Positions 11,997 to 31,126 are shown, numbered from the stretch's first letter. The stretch: 64,000 bases of DNA from Candidatus Heimdallarchaeota archaeon (GCA_018238545.1 JABCTC010000017.1:8836-72835); one strand, 5' to 3'. A program made the numbers and translations. Notes: a model not told the origin generated them from the letters alone.

Positions 11997-13169
11997 ATGA
12001 GTAAGGGATTTAATAATCAAAGATCAAAGAAACGTAAGAAGAGAGTCGGTTTTCCAAGAGGATTACTTTATTATTATTTCAAGGATATGTGGGAAACATT
12101 TTTTGTAAAATTAGGTGCTGAAGTAGTACTTTCATCTCCTACTAATAAAATAACCAAGGAACGAGGGGTGTTAGAGACTCTTGATGATGAATGTTACTCA
12201 ACCAAATTATATCATGGTCATGTCTTAGAACTTGAAGACAAAGAGTTAGATTATTTATTTGTTCCTCGATTTGCTAGTAGAAAAAAACTGGAAGTTGGTT
12301 GCCCAAAATTCGTAGCGCTAGCTGATATCCTAAAATATACAAAGAAAAATCTACCACCAATAATAGGTCCATATTATAGCACATCCAGAGAAAATCATGG
12401 ATTCTGGCGACTTACTAAAATAGTATTTGAAATTGGTTTTAAATTCACAAAAAACCCTTTAAGAATTATACGTGCAGCTATTCTAGCCTTAAGAGCACAT
12501 AGAAAGGCACAAGATGAACTAATCATTAGCGAAGAAACGTTAGAGAAATGGGAAAGATCTGAAATTTTATTAAATGATCCTCCAATAAATAATGATGGGG
12601 AGGATTTGTTGAAAGTAGCATTAGTAGGGCACAATTATGTTTTGAATGATGACTACGCATCGTTAGGTGTTAGAAAAAAGTTGCAAAAATTAGGTGTAGA
12701 TCTAATTACTTCTCAACAGATGCCAAAAAATCTGATTAAAAGACAACTATTACGTTTATCAATGATAGATTACGGTTTAGAATTTCCAGAACCAGAGAAA
12801 TTACCATTACAAGAATTAGAAAAACATCTAGTTGGAAGAAACGATTATCTCTATTTTGAATTTGAACATGATATAGTTGGAACAGCTATGCATTATCTTG
12901 AAAACCAAAAAATTGATGGGATCCTTATGCTTGTGAATTTTATCTGCGGACCAGTTTCAGTTTCAATGGAATATGCAAAACATTTCGCAAAGAAAATACA
13001 ATCTGAAACTCCTTTATCTATATTAACACTTGATGCTCATACCGGTGAAGCAGGATTCCAGACTAGATTAGAAGCGTTTTGTGATATACTTCGAATGAAG
13101 AAAAATAAAGGGTTTGTTCCTGAAGCAGCAGAAAAAGAATCTGATCTACTTCTAAAAAATTGGAGCTGA
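11997..13169 (+). CDS. 2-hydroxyacyl-CoA dehydratase/activase-related protein (DUF2229-like)
   Basis: VGFPRGLLYY, ECYSTKLYHGH, GCPKF, F.CGP, GEAGFQTRLEAF. Confidence 0.8.
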   Translation: MSKGFNNQRSKKRKKRVGFPRGLLYYYFKDMWETFFVKLGAEVVLSSPTNKITKERGVLETLDDECYSTKLYHGHVLELEDKELDYLFVPRFASRKKLEVGCPKFVALADILKYTKKNLPPIIGPYYSTSRENHGFWRLTKIVFEIGFKFTKNPLRIIRAAILALRAHRKAQDELIISEETLEKWERSEILLNDPPINNDGEDLLKVALVGHNYVLNDDYASLGVRKKLQKLGVDLITSQQMPKNLIKRQLLRLSMIDYGLEFPEPEKLPLQELEKHLVGRNDYLYFEFEHDIVGTAMHYLENQKIDGILMLVNFICGPVSVSMEYAKHFAKKIQSETPLSILTLDAHTGEAGFQTRLEAFCDILRMKKNKGFVPEAAEKESDLLLKNWS

Positions 13170-14317: not shown

Positions 14318-14401
14318 GCTAAACTCTTTTTGCCTTACATCTTTTCTATCCTACCTTCTTGTAAACTATCTTTTCAGATGGGGTTCTATGTAACAAGTGG
14401 C

Positions 14402-14434
14402 GTTTAACAACTGTTTAACGGGTGTTTAACACCC
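14402..14434. repeat. Three GTTTAAC units at 11-bp period, ending in a GGGTGTTTAACACCC near-palindrome
   Basis: GTTTAAC at 14402, 14413 and 14424. Confidence 0.7.
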
Positions 14435-14602
14435 TTCTAATATGAACTCTTTTGAGAACTTCCACAATCGGATTTTTACTGCTTTGTGTTACCTTTAATT
14501 CAAAGAGATTTAAAATTCAGTTTCTAAGGATCTTCAAACAAAATTACTTAGTTTTAAGATATATTCATTCTTGTATTTACTACTGTTTTGCAGAAAGATT
14601 GC

Positions 14603-15574
14603 CTATTTCTTCTTTTTTTCTTCTTTTTCTTGTTGTTGAATAATAATGGGAGTTACTTGCTTTATGTAAGCTTTTCCTTTGTGATTTTCAATGATTTTAA
14701 TAGCTGTAGTTCCATCAAAAGTATGTGTTGTGGCATGGAATAATGATAAAACTAGATCTTGAAATGTTTGATCATCCTCAAGGTGTTCAATTATTAAGCC
14801 TAATGCTTCAGCCTGATCTCTATCAATATGACGTCCATGACTTTTGTATGTAGAATGGTCAGCTAATTTCTCAGCAATATCTTTTGATATTTCGTCTTTA
14901 TTTTCGCTATCTTTAAACATGTAATCATTAAGGAAAGTTGCAACTAAATCTTTTGACAAATCTAAAGCATTTTGACATTGAATCAATAGAGCTGGACCAT
15001 ATTGACCTAGAATTGGCATCCATACTCCCATGTTTTTTGAATCTTCCTTGCATTCTGCTGAAGCTTTATCAAATTGATCAAGAATAGCTTGAGCAGGTAT
15101 AGAACTCACTCCTAAAGGGGTCGATAATATTATCTGAGAATCAATAGGACCAAGATAAGAATGCTTCCCCATTACAATCTTATCTGCTGCACAAGCTAAC
15201 ATTGTAGCAGCAGACATTGCCCCTTGAGGTATGATTGCTCGTATGTAATCATATTTTGTTCTTAGGTATTTAACAAAACTTTCAGTAACTTCAGCAGATC
15301 CACCAGGACTGTGAATAATCAGATCAAGTTCTTTTCCATCTAATCCATGAATAACTTCCATTAAACCTTGAATATCGTCTTCTGTAATACTAATTAGTTG
15401 TGGTGAAATATTAATACTTGCTTGTGTCCATTTTGTTGCATAGATTATTGTATCCCTTTCAGTAAATTCATTAAGCTTGTAGAGATATCGTCGTCGAATC
15501 GAATCATAAGGTGTTTTGGAACCCTTATCTTTCTTTTTCTTTAATTCGTTTAATATTCCACTCCACGTAGGCAC
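14603..15574 (-). CDS. ClpP-class serine protease, SDH_sah/S49-like family
   Basis: LDLIIHSPGG, AMSAATMLAC, LGPIDSQ, SHGRHI. Confidence 0.85.
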   Translation of the reverse strand: MPTWSGILNELKKKKDKGSKTPYDSIRRRYLYKLNEFTERDTIIYATKWTQASINISPQLISITEDDIQGLMEVIHGLDGKELDLIIHSPGGSAEVTESFVKYLRTKYDYIRAIIPQGAMSAATMLACAADKIVMGKHSYLGPIDSQIILSTPLGVSSIPAQAILDQFDKASAECKEDSKNMGVWMPILGQYGPALLIQCQNALDLSKDLVATFLNDYMFKDSENKDEISKDIAEKLADHSTYKSHGRHIDRDQAEALGLIIEHLEDDQTFQDLVLSLFHATTHTFDGTTAIKIIENHKGKAYIKQVTPIIIQQQEKEEKKKK

Positions 15575-15589
15575 TTTGTTCCCTCACTG

Positions 15590-15778
15590 TTAATTGATAC
15601 TAGTACTATCTGATACTGAAACCACACTCTTTGGCTTGGTTTCGTTTAGGTATCGATTGGAAATTTCAAGTAATTCTATATAATTACCATAAACAATCGT
15701 TAGCTCCTCTAATCCTGGTTGTTCTTCTAACTCTTTAATAAATGATTCAATCTCCTTTTTTCTACCCTTCTTTCTCAT
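15590..15778 (-). CDS. Small hypothetical protein upstream of the SDH protease
   Basis: 62-aa ORF ending 15 bp before the protease start; GAGG-type RBS in the gap. Confidence 0.6.
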   Translation of the reverse strand: MRKKGRKKEIESFIKELEEQPGLEELTIVYGNYIELLEISNRYLNETKPKSVVSVSDSTSIN

Positions 15779-15856
15779 AATTTTAGATTCTTTGTGGAAA
15801 CTATTAAGTTTTTTGTAAGAATATCTATAGTTCTCGTATTAAATACAAAAGACATA

Positions 15857-16018
15857 TTATTTGCTATTTATTTCCTTTTCATACAGAAAGCGTAAAGCTG
15901 TTCTAATGATTTCGGATCTATCCATATACTTGCCTGAATCTTCTAATTCCTGCAGCATTATCTTCAGCTTGGTGGGAAGTCTTACACCTATAATCTGTTT
16001 TTCTGCTTCAATCTCCAT
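15857..16018 (-). CDS. 53-aa CopG/Arc-type ribbon-helix-helix regulator (absent from the ORF track)
   Basis: MEIEAEKQIIGVRLPTKLKIMLQELEDSGKYMDRSEIIRTALRFLYEKEINSK; starts 2 bp after the helicase stop. Confidence 0.85.
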   Translation of the reverse strand: MEIEAEKQIIGVRLPTKLKIMLQELEDSGKYMDRSEIIRTALRFLYEKEINSK

Positions 16019-16020
16019 TC

Positions 16021-18222
16021 TTAACCACCCCTTACAAGTTTAAGCTTACTAGCTGTAGGTTGAAATAGTATCCCTTCTTGTAGAAGCTTTGAAACAATTT
16101 TATCAACTGAATCTTCACTGATTTTCTTATCCTTTATTTTTAGATATTTAGTTAGATCTCTCCGATTAAATGGTCCTTTATGGATCTGTTCTAAATCTTT
16201 GCAAGCTTCTATAACAGGTTGAATAATTAGCTCTTTCTCGGTCGTTTGCTGTCGTTCAGCCTGTTGGTGAATATTTGCATCTTCAGCTGATTCAACAGAA
16301 TTATTTTTTATATGCTTATTTTGTGTTCGGTTGTACGGTATATTCTGTTTTGTTGTTTCAGACAGTTTAGCTCGAGATTTCTTCATTTTTATACCGAACA
16401 TTCGGTATTGTTCGGGGTGTACGGTATCAACTAGTTTCTTATCTAAAAAGTGCAACTCTTTTAGATGTTCAAGAAAGATTTTTCCTTCCAGGTAATCAGG
16501 ATTACTCTTTTCAATTGCTGCAAATTTTTCTTGTGATAGATCAGTTAGGTTTATTTCCCATATCTTTTCTATTCTTGTTAAATCAAGCTCTATAACTGAA
16601 TCTATTGCTTGTGATGTCAAATAATAAAGATAGGTTCGTTTATCCTCTGAATCTTTCTCGTACGTTAAATAATTCTTTTTACATAAAGTCTTGAGATATA
16701 TCCTGATAGTATCCTTTGATTTGGTCTTTATTCTTTTATGCAATCGCTTAATAGTCGTATGATCTTTTCCGCTTTCTTTAATCTCATTAACTATTTCTTC
16801 GTATAACTCTCTGTGCCTTTTATCTACTTCACTTATTGTTTCTATTAAGATCTCTCTGAACAGCTCTAAAGCTAGAAGAATATCCGCAGGTTCGATAATA
16901 ATCAATTTCTTTTTCTCTGCTTGAATAATCGGTCTTTCATTAATTATTGCAAAAGCAAAAGAATATCTCCTAATTTTTTTCCAATGTCTAATAATGCTTG
17001 GATTAGCTGTAGGTAAGTTTAGAACTTTAGGATGAAAGAACGGACAAATCCACCCTTCTATTTTTCTTCTTTTTTCTATCAGCTCTTGAGACCAAGCTTT
17101 AAACGTTTCCAAGTATTCGTAATTATCAGGTTTTCCCCCAATTGCATCATACGAAGCTTCATACTCTAGAATACTCTCTGTTTTAACTTGTGTTTCTTCA
17201 ACTGAAACAAATATCCCCCTATTAATGTTCTCAGGATTAATCTCTCCTAAAGTCATAGTAGTCCAGAAAGAAACTTTAGGAAAAGTTAAAATTCTAGAAA
17301 CATTTCTCCCAGATCTGTCTTTATCTACTGTAGAATAAGTAAATTCTTTATCTTCTTCATTTGTAGCTAGACGCATAAACATATCTCGATAATCAGATGA
17401 TTGTTTAATTGTCTCATGCAGACACCAGATTTCAGCTTCTTTCATTTCTTCCTTATTATCTGCATAAAGATACAGTGGTGATTTGTCGCTGAATGAGCTA
17501 GCATCAAAAACATAATTATCAGGGTAAAGCTTTAGAACATTATTCATCAAATGACTTTTTCCTGCACTCGTATTTCCAGCTATATAGACCATTCCTGCAG
17601 AATTACCAAGAATACCTGTAAGATACAAAGCGATCTTATTTTTTGTTTCTCTTATGATTCCAACATCTTCACAAGCTTTGTTAATGGCAGCAACAGGATT
17701 AGCTTTAATCTCTTTCAGAATCTCTTGATTAATATTAAATTGTAGCTCAGTATATTTTTGGTACTTTTGTTTTTCCTTTCTTTGTTCAAGATAGAATTCT
17801 AGCTCTCCATCAATAAATATGCTAGCTAGCTCTTGGTATAGTTTTGCTATCATATCATAAGCTACTGATTCAATAGTTCCTGTCGTTTTGTATTTTCTCT
17901 GTCTTATTGCACTCTGCAGGATCTTGGACAAATGATATTTTTTTTCATTTAAGATCTTCTTAGCTTGAGTTTCACCATTGATGGTATCATTATAGAGTAT
18001 CTTTGTTTTTTCTCCTGGTTTAGCTTCTTGTACTAAGAAATATAATTGCTCTTTTTCATCTACATCTATCAGATAATAGAAAGGACATTCAACTGTATGA
18101 TCACCTTTTTTATGCATGAAAGGATCTAATTCTTTGTCAAATTGAAAGAACGGATGAATCTCCCCTATCCTGTTGCTAGTATTTGATGAGATAGTTTCTT
18201 TTGTTTTTGTTTTTGTATTCAC
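16021..18222 (-). CDS. AAA+/MCM-like P-loop helicase of mobile elements, with C-terminal wHTH domains
   Basis: YIAGNTSAGKS Walker A, IWCLHE Walker-B-like, SFWTTMT...PENINR sensor/Arg-finger region, wHTH-like C-terminus. Confidence 0.7.
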   Translation of the reverse strand: MNTKTKTKETISSNTSNRIGEIHPFFQFDKELDPFMHKKGDHTVECPFYYLIDVDEKEQLYFLVQEAKPGEKTKILYNDTINGETQAKKILNEKKYHLSKILQSAIRQRKYKTTGTIESVAYDMIAKLYQELASIFIDGELEFYLEQRKEKQKYQKYTELQFNINQEILKEIKANPVAAINKACEDVGIIRETKNKIALYLTGILGNSAGMVYIAGNTSAGKSHLMNNVLKLYPDNYVFDASSFSDKSPLYLYADNKEEMKEAEIWCLHETIKQSSDYRDMFMRLATNEEDKEFTYSTVDKDRSGRNVSRILTFPKVSFWTTMTLGEINPENINRGIFVSVEETQVKTESILEYEASYDAIGGKPDNYEYLETFKAWSQELIEKRRKIEGWICPFFHPKVLNLPTANPSIIRHWKKIRRYSFAFAIINERPIIQAEKKKLIIIEPADILLALELFREILIETISEVDKRHRELYEEIVNEIKESGKDHTTIKRLHKRIKTKSKDTIRIYLKTLCKKNYLTYEKDSEDKRTYLYYLTSQAIDSVIELDLTRIEKIWEINLTDLSQEKFAAIEKSNPDYLEGKIFLEHLKELHFLDKKLVDTVHPEQYRMFGIKMKKSRAKLSETTKQNIPYNRTQNKHIKNNSVESAEDANIHQQAERQQTTEKELIIQPVIEACKDLEQIHKGPFNRRDLTKYLKIKDKKISEDSVDKIVSKLLQEGILFQPTASKLKLVRGG

Positions 18223-18572
18223 TCTTTCACCTCATTAACTTCTAGGGGTATACCTCTATTCTTCAAAGTTTGAACAAAATCTTCAAGTATGATCTTGTTC
18301 CCCTCAAAAACCCATGCTTTTTCTAATGCATCCCAATAACATTTGAAAGAAACTATTTGACGTAACTTGTCTCTTTCTTCTTTGAATTCAGCTAGTTTGT
18401 TGTAATCAAAGACCAGATTAGCTTTAATTTCATCTTTATCCTGCTCTTGATTCTGTGAAGAGGATAAAATCTCTTTAAGTATTCTCTCAATTCTTAATAG
18501 AGTATGATGTGATCTTTCATTATGATCAACCCTGTCATTATCGTACTTTTCTCTATTGTCTTTAAGATACAT
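18219..18572 (-). CDS. Hypothetical protein with a W-D-x3-K-A-W motif (DUF5710/HARP-like)
   Basis: KCYWDALEKAWVF; 4-bp overlap with the helicase start. Confidence 0.55.
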   Translation of the reverse strand: MYLKDNREKYDNDRVDHNERSHHTLLRIERILKEILSSSQNQEQDKDEIKANLVFDYNKLAEFKEERDKLRQIVSFKCYWDALEKAWVFEGNKIILEDFVQTLKNRGIPLEVNEVKE

Positions 18573-18573
18573 T

Positions 18574-19041
18574 TCATTCCCCCCTTTCGCTTTTCAGATT
18601 CTCTAAAGCAGTCTTACTTAAAAAAGGCATAAGATAAGCTAGTCTTTCTTCCTCAGGAACAGTTACTAAGCTGTAGATGAATACCCTTCTACTTCTAACG
18701 TTCGGGGCAAAGAATTTCTCAGCTCTAAGCAAACCCAAATCAACCAGAGAATCAAGTAAATCTGCCTTATTATATTGTAGTTTGTATTTGTTTAATGCTA
18801 TTCTTAATCCCCTGTTATGAAAAATTCTTTCATCTACTATGTACTTGATTCTTTCTAAGTTATTGGCCTTATTCAAAAATTCCATGATTTCTTTGAGATC
18901 AGCTCTTATTCCCCAATTGGATCGGATAATAATCTCGTGGATTCTTTCAGGTCCGTATGCTTGTTTAAAAAAATCTTCAGCTGATTCATCCCCATTAGTT
19001 TTGAAGGCTGTAGATTTATTAAGTTCTTTATTTTTTTTCAT
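18574..19041 (-). CDS. Probable winged-helix DNA-binding protein
   Basis: LLDSLVDLGLL...RRVFIYSL wing pattern; GAGG RBS. Confidence 0.55.
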   Translation of the reverse strand: MKKNKELNKSTAFKTNGDESAEDFFKQAYGPERIHEIIIRSNWGIRADLKEIMEFLNKANNLERIKYIVDERIFHNRGLRIALNKYKLQYNKADLLDSLVDLGLLRAEKFFAPNVRSRRVFIYSLVTVPEEERLAYLMPFLSKTALENLKSERGE

Positions 19042-19180
19042 TTCTATTTAATACCTCTATTTTCACTTTTCAGAGAAGCAGAAAGCTAGGCTAAACATTT
19101 AAGAGCAAAAAAAAGATTGTATTAACAAGAGAGGATGAAAATTCTTACTGGGAAGTGGGATTTTTCTCTCTCTTACTTTG

Positions 19181-19348
19181 TTAATTCTCTTTTTCTGGAT
19201 CTTGTTGATTAGCTAGATATTGCTTAACTGCTTGATCTATTACTGTTTTCGCACTTCTGAAGTTTTTATGCTTCTTAAATGCAAATTCTTGAAGCTGATG
19301 ATACAGCTTTTTATCTATTCTTGCTAATGTACTAGACATAGTAATCAT
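19181..19348 (-). CDS. Ribbon-helix-helix regulator
   Basis: TLARIDKKLYHQLQEFA...VIDQAVKQYL; exact start uncertain. Confidence 0.7.
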   Translation of the reverse strand: MITMSSTLARIDKKLYHQLQEFAFKKHKNFRSAKTVIDQAVKQYLANQQDPEKEN

Positions 19349-19389
19349 TAATAAGTTTGTAAACAAGTAAATATAAAGATTGTCGTCAC

Positions 19390-19448
19390 TTTGTTTGACA
19401 AAAAAACTTATAACTTGTTAGCGAGTATACTAAATTGTGTCAAACAAA
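19390..19448. promoter_or_regulatory. 11-bp inverted repeat (probable operator) between divergent RHH genes
   Basis: TTTGTTTGACA (19390-19400) / TGTCAAACAAA (19438-19448). Confidence 0.55.
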
Positions 19449-20111
19449 ACAGACAAGCTCTTGCAGAGAGTAGCTTTTAGACTACCTAATGAAAAATATG
19501 AGAAAATTAATTCGGTTTTAGAAGATGGAAAGTATAATAGTCAATCTAATTTCTTAAGGAGTGCTGTGGACCTATTATTGTTCTGGGAAAAAAAAATCAA
19601 AAGAAATGATGTAACAGACTCTAAATTACGAGAGAGTATCGGTGTTCGTATTGCTGAAGTTGGTCAAGAACATGACAGACTTCTAGAACTCAGAGAAGAA
19701 TTACGTAAACAGGCCGAAGAAGATCTGAAAACTCTTAAAGAACTGAAAAAAGAGACTGAAGAAAGAAAAGAAGCGGGAAAATACTTTAAAACGTATTTGC
19801 CATTAGTGAACGAACATGAAAAAAGAATTAGGAGAGAGGGTCTGGAAATAGTTGCATTCTTTATGCAATTGATAAAGAACTTATATTCACAGTTTGAAGA
19901 TGAAGATTCACCACTTAAAATTAAGGCATGGGAATTACAAACCCTGACTGAAGCTAAACGAATTTTAGAAAATGTTTCAACTGAAGAAAACAAGAAGACC
20001 CCAAAAAGCAATCTTAAAAGAAATAAAGCTTCAAAAGGTTTAACTGCAAAAGATTTCTTTAATACCGTAGATTCATCTCAGTTCAAAAAGAAAGAAAAAA
20101 AAAGTAACTAA
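19437..20111 (+). CDS. RHH regulator with C-terminal coiled coil
   Basis: QRVAFRLPNEKYEKINSVLEDGKYNSQSNFLRSAVDLLL; charged heptads follow. Confidence 0.75.
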   Translation: MSNKTDKLLQRVAFRLPNEKYEKINSVLEDGKYNSQSNFLRSAVDLLLFWEKKIKRNDVTDSKLRESIGVRIAEVGQEHDRLLELREELRKQAEEDLKTLKELKKETEERKEAGKYFKTYLPLVNEHEKRIRREGLEIVAFFMQLIKNLYSQFEDEDSPLKIKAWELQTLTEAKRILENVSTEENKKTPKSNLKRNKASKGLTAKDFFNTVDSSQFKKKEKKSN

Positions 20112-27944: not shown

Positions 27945-27962
27945 TTATTCCACGTGGAATAA
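27945..27962. repeat. Perfect 18-bp palindrome TTATTCCACGTGGAATAA (same 12-bp core as 26470)
   Basis: Read directly from the sequence. Confidence 0.85.
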
Positions 27963-28006
27963 TTTCTGTTTTCTTGATCAAGTTATTCTAACCATTCTTT
28001 TATTTC

Positions 28007-28144
28007 TCATTGGTCCGAACAAATCAGCTTAAATTTACATTTCTGACATTTTTTAGAATAAAAATTCCATCTAGAACAATTGCTGGCTTTAGCTTTTTCA
28101 ATTGTTGGTAGATCCTTGTAAGTTAAATTAGCAGCAGGTTGCAT
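28007..28144 (-). CDS. 45-aa Cys-rich micro-protein (C-x9-CxxC-x5-C), absent from the ORF track
   Basis: MQPAANLTYKDLPTIEKAKASNCSRWNFYSKKCQKCKFKLICSDQ; ATG abuts the TAA of the upstream gene; AGGAAGG RBS. Confidence 0.65.
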   Translation of the reverse strand: MQPAANLTYKDLPTIEKAKASNCSRWNFYSKKCQKCKFKLICSDQ

Positions 28145-29464
28145 TTAGTTTCCTTCCTTTATTCTGTAAATCTTCTTTCTAGCTCCTTTGCCTTCTCGTT
28201 CTTCTTTGAGAGCTGTTATTTTTCCTAAATCTACTAGCTTCCTGATATGATAATAGATCCGATTATAATCTAATTGTAAAGTTGTCATAAAGTCCTGGAG
28301 AGTATAGCTTTTTTCAGCAAGTAGTTTAAGTATTTCTGTCTGTAAGGAGTCACTCCTAGCTTGGTTAGTTCTACTTACTTTGAGAAGTTGTATTTCCTCA
28401 GCTAGAAATTCACTCTCTTTTTTCATATTTGTATCATGATTCAGGATAAGATCAGCTTGATGGTCCATTCTCTGCAGTAGCATTAAATCATTAGTTGCTG
28501 TTTGTAGCTGGTATTGGGCTAGCTGATTGACATTATTATCAACTCTTCTTAATAAATTATGATTTTCATAATAATCACTATCTAGCTGTTGGACCACATT
28601 TCTATTGTAATCTAACACAGAATTAAGTTTAGAAAAACTTTGATTGCTCGAGATTGTAAATTGCTTAAGTACAGTATTCATTTTATTGAAAACAGTCCCA
28701 ATACCTAAGTCTCTCTCATTCCTTTCAAGCTGTTTAATCATTCTATCAACAGGTATATCTACACGGCTTAATTGGACTTCTTTTCGTAGTCCTTCTTTCT
28801 TATTGTAAGCTGTTAAAAGAATATTTTCAAAAGCTTGCACACTAATATAATTAGCTCCTGCTATTCTCTGAAAATCATAATCTTGGTTCAAATCTAAATT
28901 TACTAACTGCATTTTATTATGATCGCTCTTTATACTTTTCAAGTGTAAGACCGTATCAATTGCAACAATCAAAGAGCGGAATTGATAACAATCTAAAGCT
29001 TTCTTCCATCCACTACATTTGAGATCTATCCTGATACTTTGAGTAGCTTTGTAAAAAGAAAAACGGATAGGTTGATTAAGTTCTAAAAAGGGGACATCTA
29101 ATTTTTCATCTTTTCTTACAGGGACAGCTCGAATCATAATCATTACTCGATGAATGAATAAAGGTTCATCAGGATTGAAAAAGGAATCTAACTCATAAGG
29201 GATCTGTTCAAGAGGCTTAGGTTTGAAATGATAGTAGAGATATGGTTTTGTTTCTGTTCTAGCTATAGAGTATTTTGAGCTGGTTGTTAATCTTGTTAAT
29301 ATTCTTCTAATACTCGAAGCTTTACAATCAGGATAAAGCTGTTTAATGGCTTTCACTATTTCCCCACAAGTAAGCTTATGATGAGAAGATTCAATTACTG
29401 CAATGATAGCTGTAGTTAAGGAAGAATGAATATTCTGTTGAGCTGTATCTTTTACTTCTAACAA
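28145..29464 (-). CDS. wHTH + Rep_trans-like replication-initiator core + coiled coil + wHTH
   Basis: LVNLDLNQD and AYNKKEGLRKEVQL resemble the Rep_trans DxxxD and YxK..RxE motifs; GGAGGT RBS before TTG at 29464. Confidence 0.55.
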   Translation of the reverse strand: MLEVKDTAQQNIHSSLTTAIIAVIESSHHKLTCGEIVKAIKQLYPDCKASSIRRILTRLTTSSKYSIARTETKPYLYYHFKPKPLEQIPYELDSFFNPDEPLFIHRVMIMIRAVPVRKDEKLDVPFLELNQPIRFSFYKATQSIRIDLKCSGWKKALDCYQFRSLIVAIDTVLHLKSIKSDHNKMQLVNLDLNQDYDFQRIAGANYISVQAFENILLTAYNKKEGLRKEVQLSRVDIPVDRMIKQLERNERDLGIGTVFNKMNTVLKQFTISSNQSFSKLNSVLDYNRNVVQQLDSDYYENHNLLRRVDNNVNQLAQYQLQTATNDLMLLQRMDHQADLILNHDTNMKKESEFLAEEIQLLKVSRTNQARSDSLQTEILKLLAEKSYTLQDFMTTLQLDYNRIYYHIRKLVDLGKITALKEEREGKGARKKIYRIKEGN

Positions 29465-29497
29465 TTTGAATGACCTCCTGAAGTTGAAATGATAAAT

Positions 29498-29543
29498 GAG
29501 CGACAAGCGACATAGGGAGATAGGTTAATTGTCGCTCTTTTTT
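29498..29543. other. 9-bp GC-rich stem-loop upstream of the Rep-like gene (nick site or terminator candidate)
   Basis: GAGCGACAA-22nt-TTGTCGCTC followed by a T-run on the + strand. Confidence 0.5.
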
Positions 29544-30052
29544 CAAAAATTTTGAAAGTGATAATCTGTTGAATAAGAACCTTTGAAACAATAAATAAGC
29601 TAATAATTGTTACTAATATTTTTAAAGAATGTTTTTCAAAAATATAGGTAGTTGAGACAATTACTTTTTCAAAAATAATCTGTTTAACCTTCCTTTTTAG
29701 AAGGTAGTGTTTACATACGAAATACGGGTGAATAACAACAGTAGAGCTTATTAAACCCTTAATTTCCTCTGGACAATGATTCAAAGGATCTACTAGATGG
29801 TTAACTAAGTTATTCAAAGTGACAAGAAGGTATAAAGTCGTTTTAGAACCTCTGAAGCTCTCTGCCTTACATTTTCCTATTATACCCTTATCAGAAGGTA
29901 ACTTATTAGAAGGAGTTCTAATTAAGAAGAGAGTACCTTGACTTCGAGTGGAGAAATTTTTGGATTTGTAAGGAACTAATGTTAATAAGTCTCTGAAGGT
30001 ATGTTTTCTTAGTTCTAAAAGTGGTTCTATGAGATTTGTTAACCTTAAAAAA

Positions 30053-31126
30053 ATGCTGATCAGGTTATTAATCCTAATTCTTGTTTTAGGCATAGTCAGC
30101 GGAATCTCAATAGGATTGTTATTTTCTGGAACTACTTATTATGATTATACTGATTCAGATTGGGAGAATTTTTCTTTTACTCCTAGATACAATGAAAGTA
30201 ATTGGAACCTTCTCTTGGATGGACACTCTCACACCCATTTTTCTGATGGTAGCTTGACTCCTAGACAAAATATTCTTTGGCATCTTTCCTTAGGCTATAA
30301 TGCTATTGCAATAACAGATCACAACACTTTCACTGGGGCAGAGGAAGCTAGAGAAATTGCTCGAACAGAATTTAATGATACAATCAAGGTTCTCATTGGT
30401 GTCGAATTGACAACTGCTAGATGCCATTTAGACCTTATACTTCCCCCCAACGTTCAAAAAGAAAATTACAGTAAACTACTAGATGCAAAGAAAGGTATAT
30501 CGTATACTCCAACAGATGAAGAGATGCAGAACATTATCTCTGAGACACATAATTTGGGTGGAATAGTTGTAGTTAACCATTTCTTATGGTCAGAAGAATT
30601 TCTGAATGACCACCCTACAAGGCAACAATACTATGAATGGGGTGCTGATTATATTGAAGTTATTAATGAAAATGCTCCTGATTCAACATCAATAGAGTTT
30701 TGTCAAGATAATGGTCTAGGTATTATTACCGGAACTGACATGCATCAACCTGGACCTGTTTACTCTTGGACAACAATCAACATTACAGAATTTACTGAAG
30801 AAGCTATTTTTATGGAACTAAAGGAGAAACGAACATATTATATCTTCAATGGTTTCAGTTCTCCTTATGATGTTGAACATCAAATTGATCCATTATATAT
30901 TGTATTATATCCATTCATAAAAATAGGTGAAATGTTTGATGAAATGTATAGAAGAGAGGTTTACAGAGTACAATTTATTGTCTTTCTACTTTATATATTT
31001 GGAGGATTTGCTTTTTCAGAGCTCATTAGAATGACGTATCGGTTGTTAAAATGGAGATATAAGAAAAGAAAGAAAACAAAAGAGATTCAAGAGGAAAAGG
31101 TAAATCACGATCAAGTGAAAAAATAG
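30053..31126 (+). CDS. Membrane-anchored PHP-family phosphoesterase
   Basis: DGHSHTHFSDG, ITDHN, GVELT, NH, GTDMH; TM at both ends. Confidence 0.85.
   Translation: MLIRLLILILVLGIVSGISIGLLFSGTTYYDYTDSDWENFSFTPRYNESNWNLLLDGHSHTHFSDGSLTPRQNILWHLSLGYNAIAITDHNTFTGAEEAREIARTEFNDTIKVLIGVELTTARCHLDLILPPNVQKENYSKLLDAKKGISYTPTDEEMQNIISETHNLGGIVVVNHFLWSEEFLNDHPTRQQYYEWGADYIEVINENAPDSTSIEFCQDNGLGIITGTDMHQPGPVYSWTTINITEFTEEAIFMELKEKRTYYIFNGFSSPYDVEHQIDPLYIVLYPFIKIGEMFDEMYRREVYRVQFIVFLLYIFGGFAFSELIRMTYRLLKWRYKKRKKTKEIQEEKVNHDQVKK

What the first reader, a model, noticed from the sequence alone, without database searches (positions are those of the whole stretch)
28145..29464. Double-wHTH Rep_trans-like protein: second replicon or array-associated effector
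Architecture: N-terminal wHTH, a core with H..., D-L-N-Q-D and Y-N-K...R-K-E motifs recalling Rep_trans rolling-circle initiators, a long coiled coil, and an ArsR-like wHTH. With the helicase operon this gives two replication systems. 26.4-29.9 kb may therefore be a separate ~3.5-kb mini-replicon (Rep + origin + CRISPR guides) co-integrated with, or parasitic on, the helicase/recombinase element.
Basis: partly seen in the sequence, partly recalled or inferred. Interest (0 to 1): 0.7.

Follow-up and report, generated by a model that had tools for sequence, protein, structure and literature searches.

The report
Asgard element's Rep_trans-like initiator candidate
A 439-residue protein at the end of a 15.5-kb mobile element integrated in a Heimdallarchaeial genome has two DNA-binding winged helices, a coiled coil and a core that most likely is a very divergent relative of the Rep_trans nicking enzymes that start rolling-circle replication, a kind of initiator hardly documented in Asgard archaea.

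Summary
The gene is real: window 28145-29464, minus strand, 439 aa, TTG start behind an AGGAGG ribosome-binding site. The described architecture is there too: N-terminal wHTH, a beta-rich core, a helix of about 110 residues, and an ArsR-type wHTH.

The family is small, with about a dozen homologues. Full-length copies occur only in one Heimdallarchaeial genus and related metagenomes, always in mobile-element or virus-like contexts.

No sequence profile (Pfam Rep_trans, Phage_CRI, DUF7845; hhalign) reaches significance. Four weak lines still converge on the Rep_trans/gpII clan:
- TBP tops the Foldseek list for the core.
- Weak structural matches point to Inoviridae Rep and G2P clusters.
- Language-model neighbours are all Phage_CRI/Rep_trans (0.93 for a 33%-identical homologue).
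- Five invariant motifs are colinear with Rep_trans catalytic motifs (H105, D147, D191, Y220-N-K-K, R227-x-E229-x-Q-L).

Best reading (about 0.55): a nicking or origin-binding replication initiator of the integrated element.

I found no support for a separate 3.5-kb mini-replicon (no circular contigs; comparison with an uninterrupted site shows one 15.5-kb insertion). An obligate CRISPR-array partnership is not supported either, since arrays lie near only 3 of 8 homologues.

The scan's first-stage readers flagged look-alike proteins in two other genomes.

The parts
28145..29464 (-). Gene for the 439-aa wHTH / Rep_trans-like core / coiled coil / wHTH protein
   Evidence: ORF and translation; identical protein P0002 and 11 homologues; conserved TTG start and Shine-Dalgarno sequence
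29228..29431 (-). N-terminal winged helix (residues 12-79)
   Evidence: AF2 secondary structure and pLDDT; DUF7669 at its cut-off; weak MarR/TrmB hits in P0014
28760..29179 (-). Beta-rich core (residues 96-235) carrying H105, R145/D147, D191/D195, Y220-N-K-K and R227-x-E229-x-Q231-L. This is the candidate nicking domain.
   Evidence: Core model; TBP tops the Foldseek PDB list; BFVD and Atlas shape matches; language-model neighbours; motif comparison with pT181 RepC and other Rep_trans proteins
28370..28702 (-). Long Gln/Asn-rich helix (residues 255-365), probably a coiled coil for oligomerisation
   Evidence: A single helix in the AF2 model; weak matches to coiled-coil chains. Oligomerisation is inferred.
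28160..28351 (-). C-terminal ArsR/PH1932-type winged helix (residues 372-435)
   Evidence: HTH_5; 1uly E 2e-5; Foldseek wHTH matches
28007..28144 (-). 45-aa Cys-rich (C-x2-W ... C-x2-C ... C) small gene that starts right after the stop codon. It is a conserved partner gene.
   Evidence: ORF. Homologues lie directly downstream in L001, L005, L006 and L007, and nearby in L002 and L030. DNA conservation. No Pfam hit.
29473..29560 (-). Conserved non-coding promoter/operator. It holds the Shine-Dalgarno sequence (29473-29479), an inverted and direct repeat GAGCGACA ... TGTCGCT-TGTCGCTC (29498-29537) and an A/T-rich TATA-like tract (29538-29558).
   Evidence: DNA alignment of 7 loci has invariant columns and indels that are not multiples of three, so the overlapping ORF 29458-30093 is probably spurious
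27948..27965 (.). Perfect 18-bp palindrome TTATTCCACGTGGAATAA about 40 nt after the two-gene operon, with a second copy of the core at 26473. Candidate protein-binding or hairpin site.
   Evidence: CCACGTGG-centred palindromes with different, still self-complementary flanks follow the operon in L007.
26597..27267 (.). Conserved non-coding blocks (26597-26778 and 27079-27267) shared with the elements in L030, L006 and L007. Candidate origin or ncRNA region of the module.
   Evidence: blastn; repeats D2 and D4
27349..27692 (+). Palindromic leader element (27349-27378) and a cas-less mini-CRISPR array (27426-27692; four 37-nt repeats, three spacers). This is facultative cargo of the module.
   Evidence: The leader palindrome recurs in L005, and leader-like sequence recurs in L030. 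The repeat is found nowhere else in the 92%-complete assembly.
14443..29901 (.). Integrated mobile element of about 15.5 kb that contains the gene as its last gene at the right end
   Evidence: G014:C132 joins 14442 to 30022 across about 0.8 kb, and G026:C157 is homologous down to 29902. Serine recombinase at 20108-20857. P-loop plus wH protein at 16021-18222.

Best explanation
The protein is the replication-initiation (or DNA-processing) protein of a family of Heimdallarchaeial integrative elements. Its core (residues about 96-235) is a very divergent member of the TBP-fold Rep_trans / gpII / Rep-Arvir superfamily of tyrosine nickases.

Inferred mechanism:
- The two winged helices recognise sites in the adjacent non-coding module and its own operator, giving autoregulation.
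- The long helix dimerises the protein.
- Y220, next to a metal site made by H105, D191 and E229, nicks one strand at an origin in the excised circle and primes rolling-circle or nick-primed replication.
- The element's own P-loop/winged-helix NTPase (16021-18222) or a host helicase would unwind the DNA.

Shown: the gene, its domains, motif conservation, its mobile-element setting and its terminal position. Inferred: homology to Rep_trans, catalysis, dimerisation and the origin.

For: 2. BFVD. The best rows include A0A345M-series proteins of unconfirmed identity (prob up to 0.94), a 'GST REP' of Inoviridae, and giant-virus TBPs. This is the same pattern reported for RepSNJ2.

3. ESM Atlas by shape. 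A G2P/Phage_CRI cluster matches at TM 0.48, 107 residues, rmsd 3.6.

4. Language-model features. The core of the 33%-identical homologue P0014 scores 0.93, and every named hit is Phage_CRI or Rep_trans, alongside one unnamed cluster labelled 'site-specific topoisomerase activity for nick site'. The window protein's core gives the same clan at 0.78.

5. Colinear invariant motifs compared with Rep_trans:
- LFIH105RVMI against S[IF]D46..T[IV]
- IRID147LKCS against R[ILV][DE]FNPNK
- VNLD191LNQD195 against [FY][TS]R.D142[LIV]A.D
- TAY220NKK against IR.Y191NKK
- R227-K-E229-V-Q231-L against WR[LV]E214[LMI][QE]L
D46, D142 and E214 are the metal ligands and Y191 the catalytic Tyr of RepDE; K193 is needed for religation.

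6. Context. The gene is the terminal gene of an integrated 15.5-kb element. It sits next to a conserved non-coding module with palindromes. The distant homologue P0014 lies just downstream of a tyrosine integrase on 30-40-kb virus-like contigs, as in the int-rep arrangement of SNJ2.

7. Distribution is patchy: 5 full-length copies in 24 genomes of one genus, plus one truncated copy.
Against: No sequence profile supports the link:
- Pfam hmmscan of all 11 cores at E up to 10 gives no Rep_trans, Phage_CRI or DUF7845 hit.
- Six-frame genome searches with PF02486, PF05144 and PF25227 find nothing.
- hhalign against pT181-type RepC, and against a more diverse 8-sequence Rep_trans alignment, gives probability below 1% and P 0.13-0.3.
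- A profile search of PDB sequences finds nothing for the core.

Structural and other weaknesses:
- AF2 puts Y220 at the end of a low-confidence helix rather than on a strand.
- His stands where Rep_trans has Asp46. R189 has no counterpart.
- The Tyr-to-Glu spacing is 9 residues instead of about 23.
- A feature score of 0.93 arises in 4-10% of shuffled queries.
- No conserved origin hairpin common to all loci was found.
Confidence: 0.55

Rival explanations
1. A non-catalytic DNA-binding protein of the element, such as a transcriptional repressor, an origin- or centromere-binding protein, or a DNA-bridging protein. It would use two winged helices and a TBP-like DNA-binding core, be dimerised by the coiled coil, and have no nicking activity.
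For: Both wHTH domains are well supported. A conserved palindromic operator lies in its own promoter. TBP-like folds often simply bind DNA. No significant match to any nuclease family was found. NCBI names homologues as wHTH regulators.
Against: The core keeps about 15 invariant polar residues (H105, E120, R145, D147, K176, N189, D195, N205, Q210, Y220, N221, K222, R227, E229, Q231) down to 33% identity, which is more typical of an active site. Their order matches Rep_trans catalytic motifs. Language-model and shape neighbours are nickases, not regulators.
Confidence: 0.27
2. An accessory factor of the cas-less mini-CRISPR arrays. It could be a repeat- or leader-binding regulator in the manner of Cbp1, or an effector that uses the element's crRNAs.
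For: Mini-arrays lie 0.45-3 kb downstream of the homologue in the window, L005 and L030, with a shared palindromic leader element. A solitary repeat-like sequence follows the operon in L002.
Against: No array was found within the DNA held (1.3-10 kb downstream) at L001, L002, L003, L006 and L007, nor on the contigs of the distant homologues P0014, P0016 and P0018. The arrays belong to two unrelated repeat families, and the leader-array unit is inverted relative to the gene between the window and L005. The protein has no similarity to any Cas family in the Pfam scans.
Confidence: 0.07
3. The gene belongs to a separate small (about 3.5 kb) replicon consisting of Rep, origin and array. That replicon would be co-integrated with, or parasitic on, the helicase/recombinase element.
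For: The gene, the small Cys-rich gene and non-coding blocks recur as one module beside otherwise unrelated cargo. Two homologues sit on short contigs of 3.7 and 4.6 kb.
Against: None of the contigs checked has overlapping ends. Comparison with an uninterrupted site shows a single insertion, 14443-29901, with no internal junction detected. G+C content shows no break around 26-30 kb.
Confidence: 0.08

Closest known systems
Rep_trans (PF02486) rolling-circle initiators: RepC/RepD of pT181-family plasmids and RepSTK1 (PDB 4CWC, 4CIJ)
   Same: TBP is the only or top structural neighbour for both. The ordered motifs are shared: a strand with a metal ligand, R-h-[DE], h-D-h-x-x-x-D, Y-N-K-K and R-x-E-x-[QE]-L. 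A DNA-binding HTH-type domain is attached to the catalytic domain, and both are carried by mobile DNA.
   Different: No profile-level similarity. The core is about 140 rather than about 190 residues. His replaces Asp46, there is no Arg189 equivalent, and the loop between Tyr and Glu is about 14 residues shorter. There is an extra N-terminal wHTH and a coiled coil of about 110 residues. The host is archaeal, and the element is a 15.5-kb integrative one rather than a small plasmid.
Rep-Arvir (DUF7845, PF25227), e.g. RepSNJ2 of the pleolipovirus SNJ2 (PMC13107129)
   Same: An archaeal mobile-element initiator whose relation to Rep_trans is visible only by structure. Catalytic domain plus wHTH, with some members carrying a second wHTH. 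It lies next to the integrase or at the provirus end, and hairpin-forming DNA lies downstream.
   Different: No DUF7845 match. The catalytic domain is N-terminal and about 300 aa in Rep-Arvir, but internal and about 140 aa here. The motif around the Tyr differs (KHYYM in RepSNJ2, AYNKK here). The Rep-Arvir paper reports only one unverified Asgard homologue.
Filamentous-phage gene II / Phage_CRI (PF05144) replication proteins
   Same: They are the nearest neighbours by language-model features (0.93 for P0014) and by shape in the ESM Atlas (TM 0.48).
   Different: No HMM match. They are bacterial or phage proteins without the flanking winged helices and coiled coil.
PH1932-type ArsR winged-helix regulators (PDB 1uly)
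   Same: The C-terminal 65 residues match at E 2e-5.
   Different: This covers only the last domain, and those proteins lack the core and the coiled coil.

Membership tests
Rep_trans (PF02486) | Significant match to the family profile | tested here: not met
   No hit at E up to 10 for any of 11 cores. The six-frame genome search at E up to 1 found nothing. hhalign against RepC-type and mixed Rep_trans alignments gave probability below 1%.
Rep_trans (PF02486) | Catalytic domain built on an extended curved beta-sheet whose only structural neighbour is TBP | tested here: inconclusive
Rep_trans (PF02486) | Catalytic Tyr in a YxxK motif (Y191, K193 in RepD) | tested here: met
   Y220-N-K222-K223. 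Y220, N221 and K222 are invariant in 11 homologues, and the four residues are identical to the IYNKK of RepC. Catalysis itself was not tested.
Rep_trans (PF02486) | Three carboxylate metal ligands on three separate strands (D46, D142, E214) | tested here: inconclusive
   Colinear candidates are H105 (a His, not an Asp), D191 (His in P0014) with invariant D195, and invariant E229. H105 and D191 lie on separate predicted strands, while E229 lies in a low-confidence stretch.
Rep_trans (PF02486) | Site-specific nicking with a covalent 5'-phosphotyrosine link; single-stranded replication intermediates | not testable with these tools
   This needs biochemistry.
Rep-Arvir (DUF7845, PF25227) | Match to DUF7845 and an N-terminal catalytic domain followed by a wHTH | tested here: not met
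   No DUF7845 hit. The domain order here is wHTH, core, coiled coil, wHTH.
CRISPR-array-associated factor | Consistent co-occurrence with arrays | tested here: not met
   Arrays lie near 3 of 8 independent close homologues and near neither of the two distant homologues whose contigs were scanned for arrays.
ArsR/PH1932-type wHTH | Winged helix-turn-helix matching HTH_5 | tested here: met
   HTH_5 E 4e-4 here, just under the cut-off, and 1.3e-6 in P0014. 1uly E 2e-5. This applies to residues 372-435 only.

The most novel reading that the evidence does not exclude
This is a third, Asgard-specific family of TBP-fold (Rep_trans-like) tyrosine nickases with a new wHTH / nuclease / coiled coil / wHTH architecture. 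With a small zinc-ribbon-like partner and an adjacent non-coding origin module, it forms the replication cassette of a family of Heimdallarchaeial integrative elements that also carry cas-less mini-CRISPR arrays. In the integrated state the gene sits at the element's end. Excision would place it directly downstream of, and co-directional with, the NTPase-protease operon at the other end, as in the excision-restored replication operon of SNJ2.
Probability: 0.4. Interest if true: 0.65.

Novelty: new variant of a known kind. Interest (0 to 1): 0.55.

Why it matters
How Asgard mobile elements replicate is almost unknown. The 2026 Rep-Arvir study found only one unverified Asgard homologue of the archaeal Rep_trans-like initiators.

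If this family is a nickase, three things follow. It extends the TBP-fold rolling-circle initiator superfamily to Heimdallarchaeia with a new domain architecture. It gives a marker gene for finding such elements. It also offers a compact replication cassette (gene, small partner gene, non-coding module) that could seed vectors for Asgard archaea.

It also shows that the mini-CRISPR arrays are cargo of a replication module and not partners of the protein.

Tried and rejected
Searches that found nothing for the core:
- Pfam, PHROGs and PDB-sequence searches gave nothing usable.
- Foldseek with the whole model returned only wHTH regulators.
- hhalign against RepC-type and mixed Rep_trans alignments was not significant.
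- Six-frame genome searches with PF02486, PF25227 and PF05144 were negative.

Other checks:
- One database search with pT181 RepC returned only near-identical proteins and added no diversity.
- The terminal-overlap test for circular contigs was negative for all loci checked.
- A search for att-like direct repeats at the element ends found only a 12-mer.
- The upstream ORF 29458-30093 was considered as a partner gene and rejected. Its conservation is at the DNA level, with indels that break the frame.
- The hits in another Heimdallarchaeial family (ORFs of about 325 aa) share only the ArsR-type wHTH, which is N-terminal there.
- HUH and primase-polymerase readings were considered from the motifs and dropped: there is no HUH motif, and the order of motifs does not fit.
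- No conserved hairpin common to all loci was found downstream of the operon.

Full report
**The gene and its host**

The window has about 33% G+C. It carries anaerobe-type metabolic genes, among them aldehyde ferredoxin oxidoreductase and CoA-enzyme activase. The closest named homologue of the target is from a Heimdallarchaeaceae archaeon.

The ORF at 28145-29506 on the minus strand is open. The 439-aa form begins at TTG 29464, 7 nt behind AGGAGGT. It is identical to a protein already in the public collection, P0002.

The ORF that overlaps upstream (29458-30093) is probably not a gene. Seven loci share that stretch at the DNA level with frame-breaking indels. The conserved part is an A/T-rich tract followed by GAGCGACA ... 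TGTCGCT-TGTCGCTC, which looks like a promoter with a palindromic operator.

**Architecture**

The AF2 model from the 11-sequence alignment (mean pLDDT 69) shows four parts:
- a helix-helix-helix-strand-strand winged helix at residues 12-79
- a beta-rich core at 102-221
- one continuous helix at 255-365
- a second winged helix at 372-435

Pfam gives DUF7669 at its cut-off for the first domain and HTH_5 for the last. The family profile hits the ArsR homologue PH1932 (1uly) at E 2e-5. Foldseek with the whole model returns only ArsR/PadR/MarR regulators.

**Family and distribution**

An exhaustive HMMER search of 1.84 billion cluster representatives finds only 8 proteins at E up to 0.001. Four have E up to 1e-30; two of them (P0011, 45% identical, and P0014, 34% identical) are full-length clusters distinct from the window protein's own, and a third (P0012) is a 261-aa C-terminal piece.

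P0016, P0018 and P0013 share only the coiled coil plus the C-terminal wHTH. That part is therefore a separable module.

Among 82 Heimdallarchaeial species genomes, full-length copies occur in 5 of 24 genomes of the window's own genus, with one truncated copy. Elsewhere only the generic wHTH matches. The window's assembly holds one copy.

**Setting**

G014:C132 carries the left flank up to window 14442 and the right flank from 30022 only about 0.8 kb apart. G026:C157 is homologous down to 29902. So 14443-29901 is one insertion of about 15.5 kb, and the target is its last gene, with its promoter facing the right boundary.

The element also has:
- a serine recombinase (20108-20857)
- a ClpP-like protease
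- a 733-aa protein with a Walker A motif, weak AAA_16/AAA_22 hits and winged-helix hits that include an MCM-type one

In G022 another, partly related element sits at the same left junction. In L003 and L030 the homologue lies 0.8-1.3 kb from a host RagA-like GTPase gene, which is consistent with a terminal position there too.

The distant homologue P0014 lies about 0.4 kb downstream of a tyrosine integrase on 30-40-kb contigs whose genes all face one way and which also carry a giant ParB_N protein. P0016 sits on a similar virus-like contig. Other genes of the window's element are mostly not shared with the other loci.

A 45-aa Cys-rich gene (28007-28144) follows the target directly. It is conserved in six other loci.

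The non-coding stretch 26.4-28.1 kb shares several blocks, in the same order, with the G022 element and in part with L006 and L007. The gene, its small partner and the non-coding DNA thus form a conserved module. No contig has overlapping ends, and nothing indicates a separate small replicon.

**Is the core Rep_trans-like?**

Sequence profiles say nothing. There is no Rep_trans, Phage_CRI or DUF7845 hit at E up to 10 for any of 11 cores, none in six-frame genome searches and none against PDB sequences. hhalign against a RepC alignment finds only the YNKK motif. Against a more diverse alignment built from staphylococcal, enterococcal, Weissella and Lactobacillus Rep_trans genes, it gives a colinear but non-significant alignment with P 0.13.

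Four other lines point the same way.

2. *Viral structures.* In BFVD the top rows include A0A345M-series proteins whose identity I could not confirm (prob up to 0.94), an Inoviridae 'GST REP' and giant-virus TBPs.

3. *ESM Atlas by shape.* A G2P/Phage_CRI cluster appears at TM 0.48 over 107 residues, with rmsd 3.6.

4. *Language-model features.* The window protein's core has Phage_CRI and Rep_trans clusters as nearest named neighbours at a weak 0.78. The core of P0014, only 33% identical, scores 0.93, and every named hit is Phage_CRI or Rep_trans, alongside one unnamed cluster labelled 'site-specific topoisomerase activity for nick site'. The tool's own calibration says 0.9 or more arises in 4-10% of shuffled queries. 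This is evidence, not proof.

**Motifs**

The Rep_trans alignment shows the family's conserved blocks. Each has a colinear, invariant counterpart here:

| Rep_trans block | Residue of note | Counterpart here |
|---|---|---|
| S[IF]D..T[IV] | Asp46 | LFIH105RVMI |
| R[ILV][DE]FNPNK | | IRID147LKCS |
| [FY][TS]R.D[LIV]A.D | Asp142 | VNLD191LNQD195 |
| IR.YNKK.E | Tyr191, Lys193 | TAY220NKKEG |
| WR[LV]E[LMI][QE]L | Glu214 | LR227KE229VQ231L |

Asp46, Asp142 and Glu214 bind the metal, Tyr191 is the nucleophile and Lys193 is needed for religation.

The differences are real:
- His stands in place of Asp46.
- There is no Arg189.
- The Tyr-to-Glu spacing is 9 residues instead of about 23.

If K223-E-G225-L forms a tight turn (Gly225 is invariant), Y220 and E229 would be cross-strand neighbours. 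That is my inference. AF2 models this stretch with low confidence and as the end of a helix.

**Arrays**

A four-repeat array lies 450 nt downstream of the gene. Its repeat occurs nowhere else in the 92%-complete assembly.

L005 has a three-repeat array of an unrelated 28-nt repeat about 540 nt downstream. L030 has several arrays of both repeat families. A 30-bp palindrome precedes the array in the window and in L005. The leader-array unit is inverted relative to the gene between these two loci.

Five other close-homologue loci and the distant homologues have no array in the DNA held; L002 has a single repeat-like sequence. The arrays are therefore optional cargo of the module, not obligate partners of the protein.

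**Verdict**

The most likely function is a divergent Rep_trans-superfamily nicking or origin-binding initiator of the integrated element (about 0.55). A purely DNA-binding role is the main rival (about 0.27).

If the element circularises, the minus-strand NTPase-protease genes at the left end would come to lie directly upstream of this gene and co-directional with it, an arrangement reminiscent of SNJ2. This is inference only.

The 'second replicon' and 'array effector' readings are not supported. The scan's first-stage readers independently flagged look-alike proteins in two other genomes; those notes are unchecked.

Noticed in passing
window 28007-28144 (-): A 45-aa Cys-rich (zinc-ribbon-like, C-x2-W..C-x2-C..C) gene starts right after the target's stop codon. 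It is conserved beside homologues in six other loci. A similar Cys-rich ORF lies about 1 kb downstream of the distant homologue P0014 (L037, roughly 12560-12710). It has no Pfam family.
   Followed up: partly
L030 11369-13975: The G022 element carries four separate arrays of two unrelated repeat families: three units of two repeats and one six-repeat array. The single 'spacers' of two units with different repeats, and the sequence after the last repeat of the long array, share a near-palindromic motif of about 25 nt (GGYTGTACCCACWGTGGG...). That is unexpected for independently acquired spacers.
   Followed up: no
window 27349-27378; L005 2329-2358; L030 about 12274-12308: A 30-bp palindrome (GACCT.CGT.GACAAT.TGTCTAT.CAGGT) precedes the mini-array in the window and in L005, whose arrays have different repeat families; a related sequence lies beside a mini-array in L030. 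None is expected by chance in the window. It may be a leader, promoter or protein-binding site.
   Followed up: partly
window 26473 and 27948; L007 1100, 2764, 3212 (plus TCTTCCCACGTGGGAAGA at about 2731): Perfect palindromes centred on CCACGTGG have flanks that differ between copies yet stay self-complementary. They bracket the non-coding module and follow the two-gene operon in two elements.
   Followed up: partly
L030 13000-13075: A second, reversed copy of the target gene's promoter and left operator half lies beside the non-coding 'origin-like' blocks in the G022 element. It points into non-coding DNA, so it may drive a non-coding RNA.
   Followed up: no
window 14329-14442: The 114 bp just inside the left flank recur at 83-93% identity, partly as shorter 58-74-bp pieces, on several contigs of related genomes (G014, G021 four places, G023, G030). 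This may be the recombinase's target or a small repeated element.
   Followed up: no
window 16021-18222 (-): A 733-aa protein with a Walker A motif (GNTSAGKS), weak AAA_16/AAA_22 hits and two C-terminal winged helices, one weakly MCM-type. It is a putative replicative NTPase of the element and is not found next to the other homologues.
   Followed up: partly
L037/L038 (contigs of 29.6 and 40.7 kb): The 34%-identical homologue P0014 lies on virus-like contigs whose genes all face one way. These carry a tyrosine integrase, an RNase_T exonuclease, a 1143-aa ParB_N protein and several 470-1700-aa proteins of no known family.
   Followed up: no
L032 (G017:C14) 582-1082: A truncated copy of the gene (residues 81-247 only) in a related genome, probably a decayed element.
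   Followed up: no
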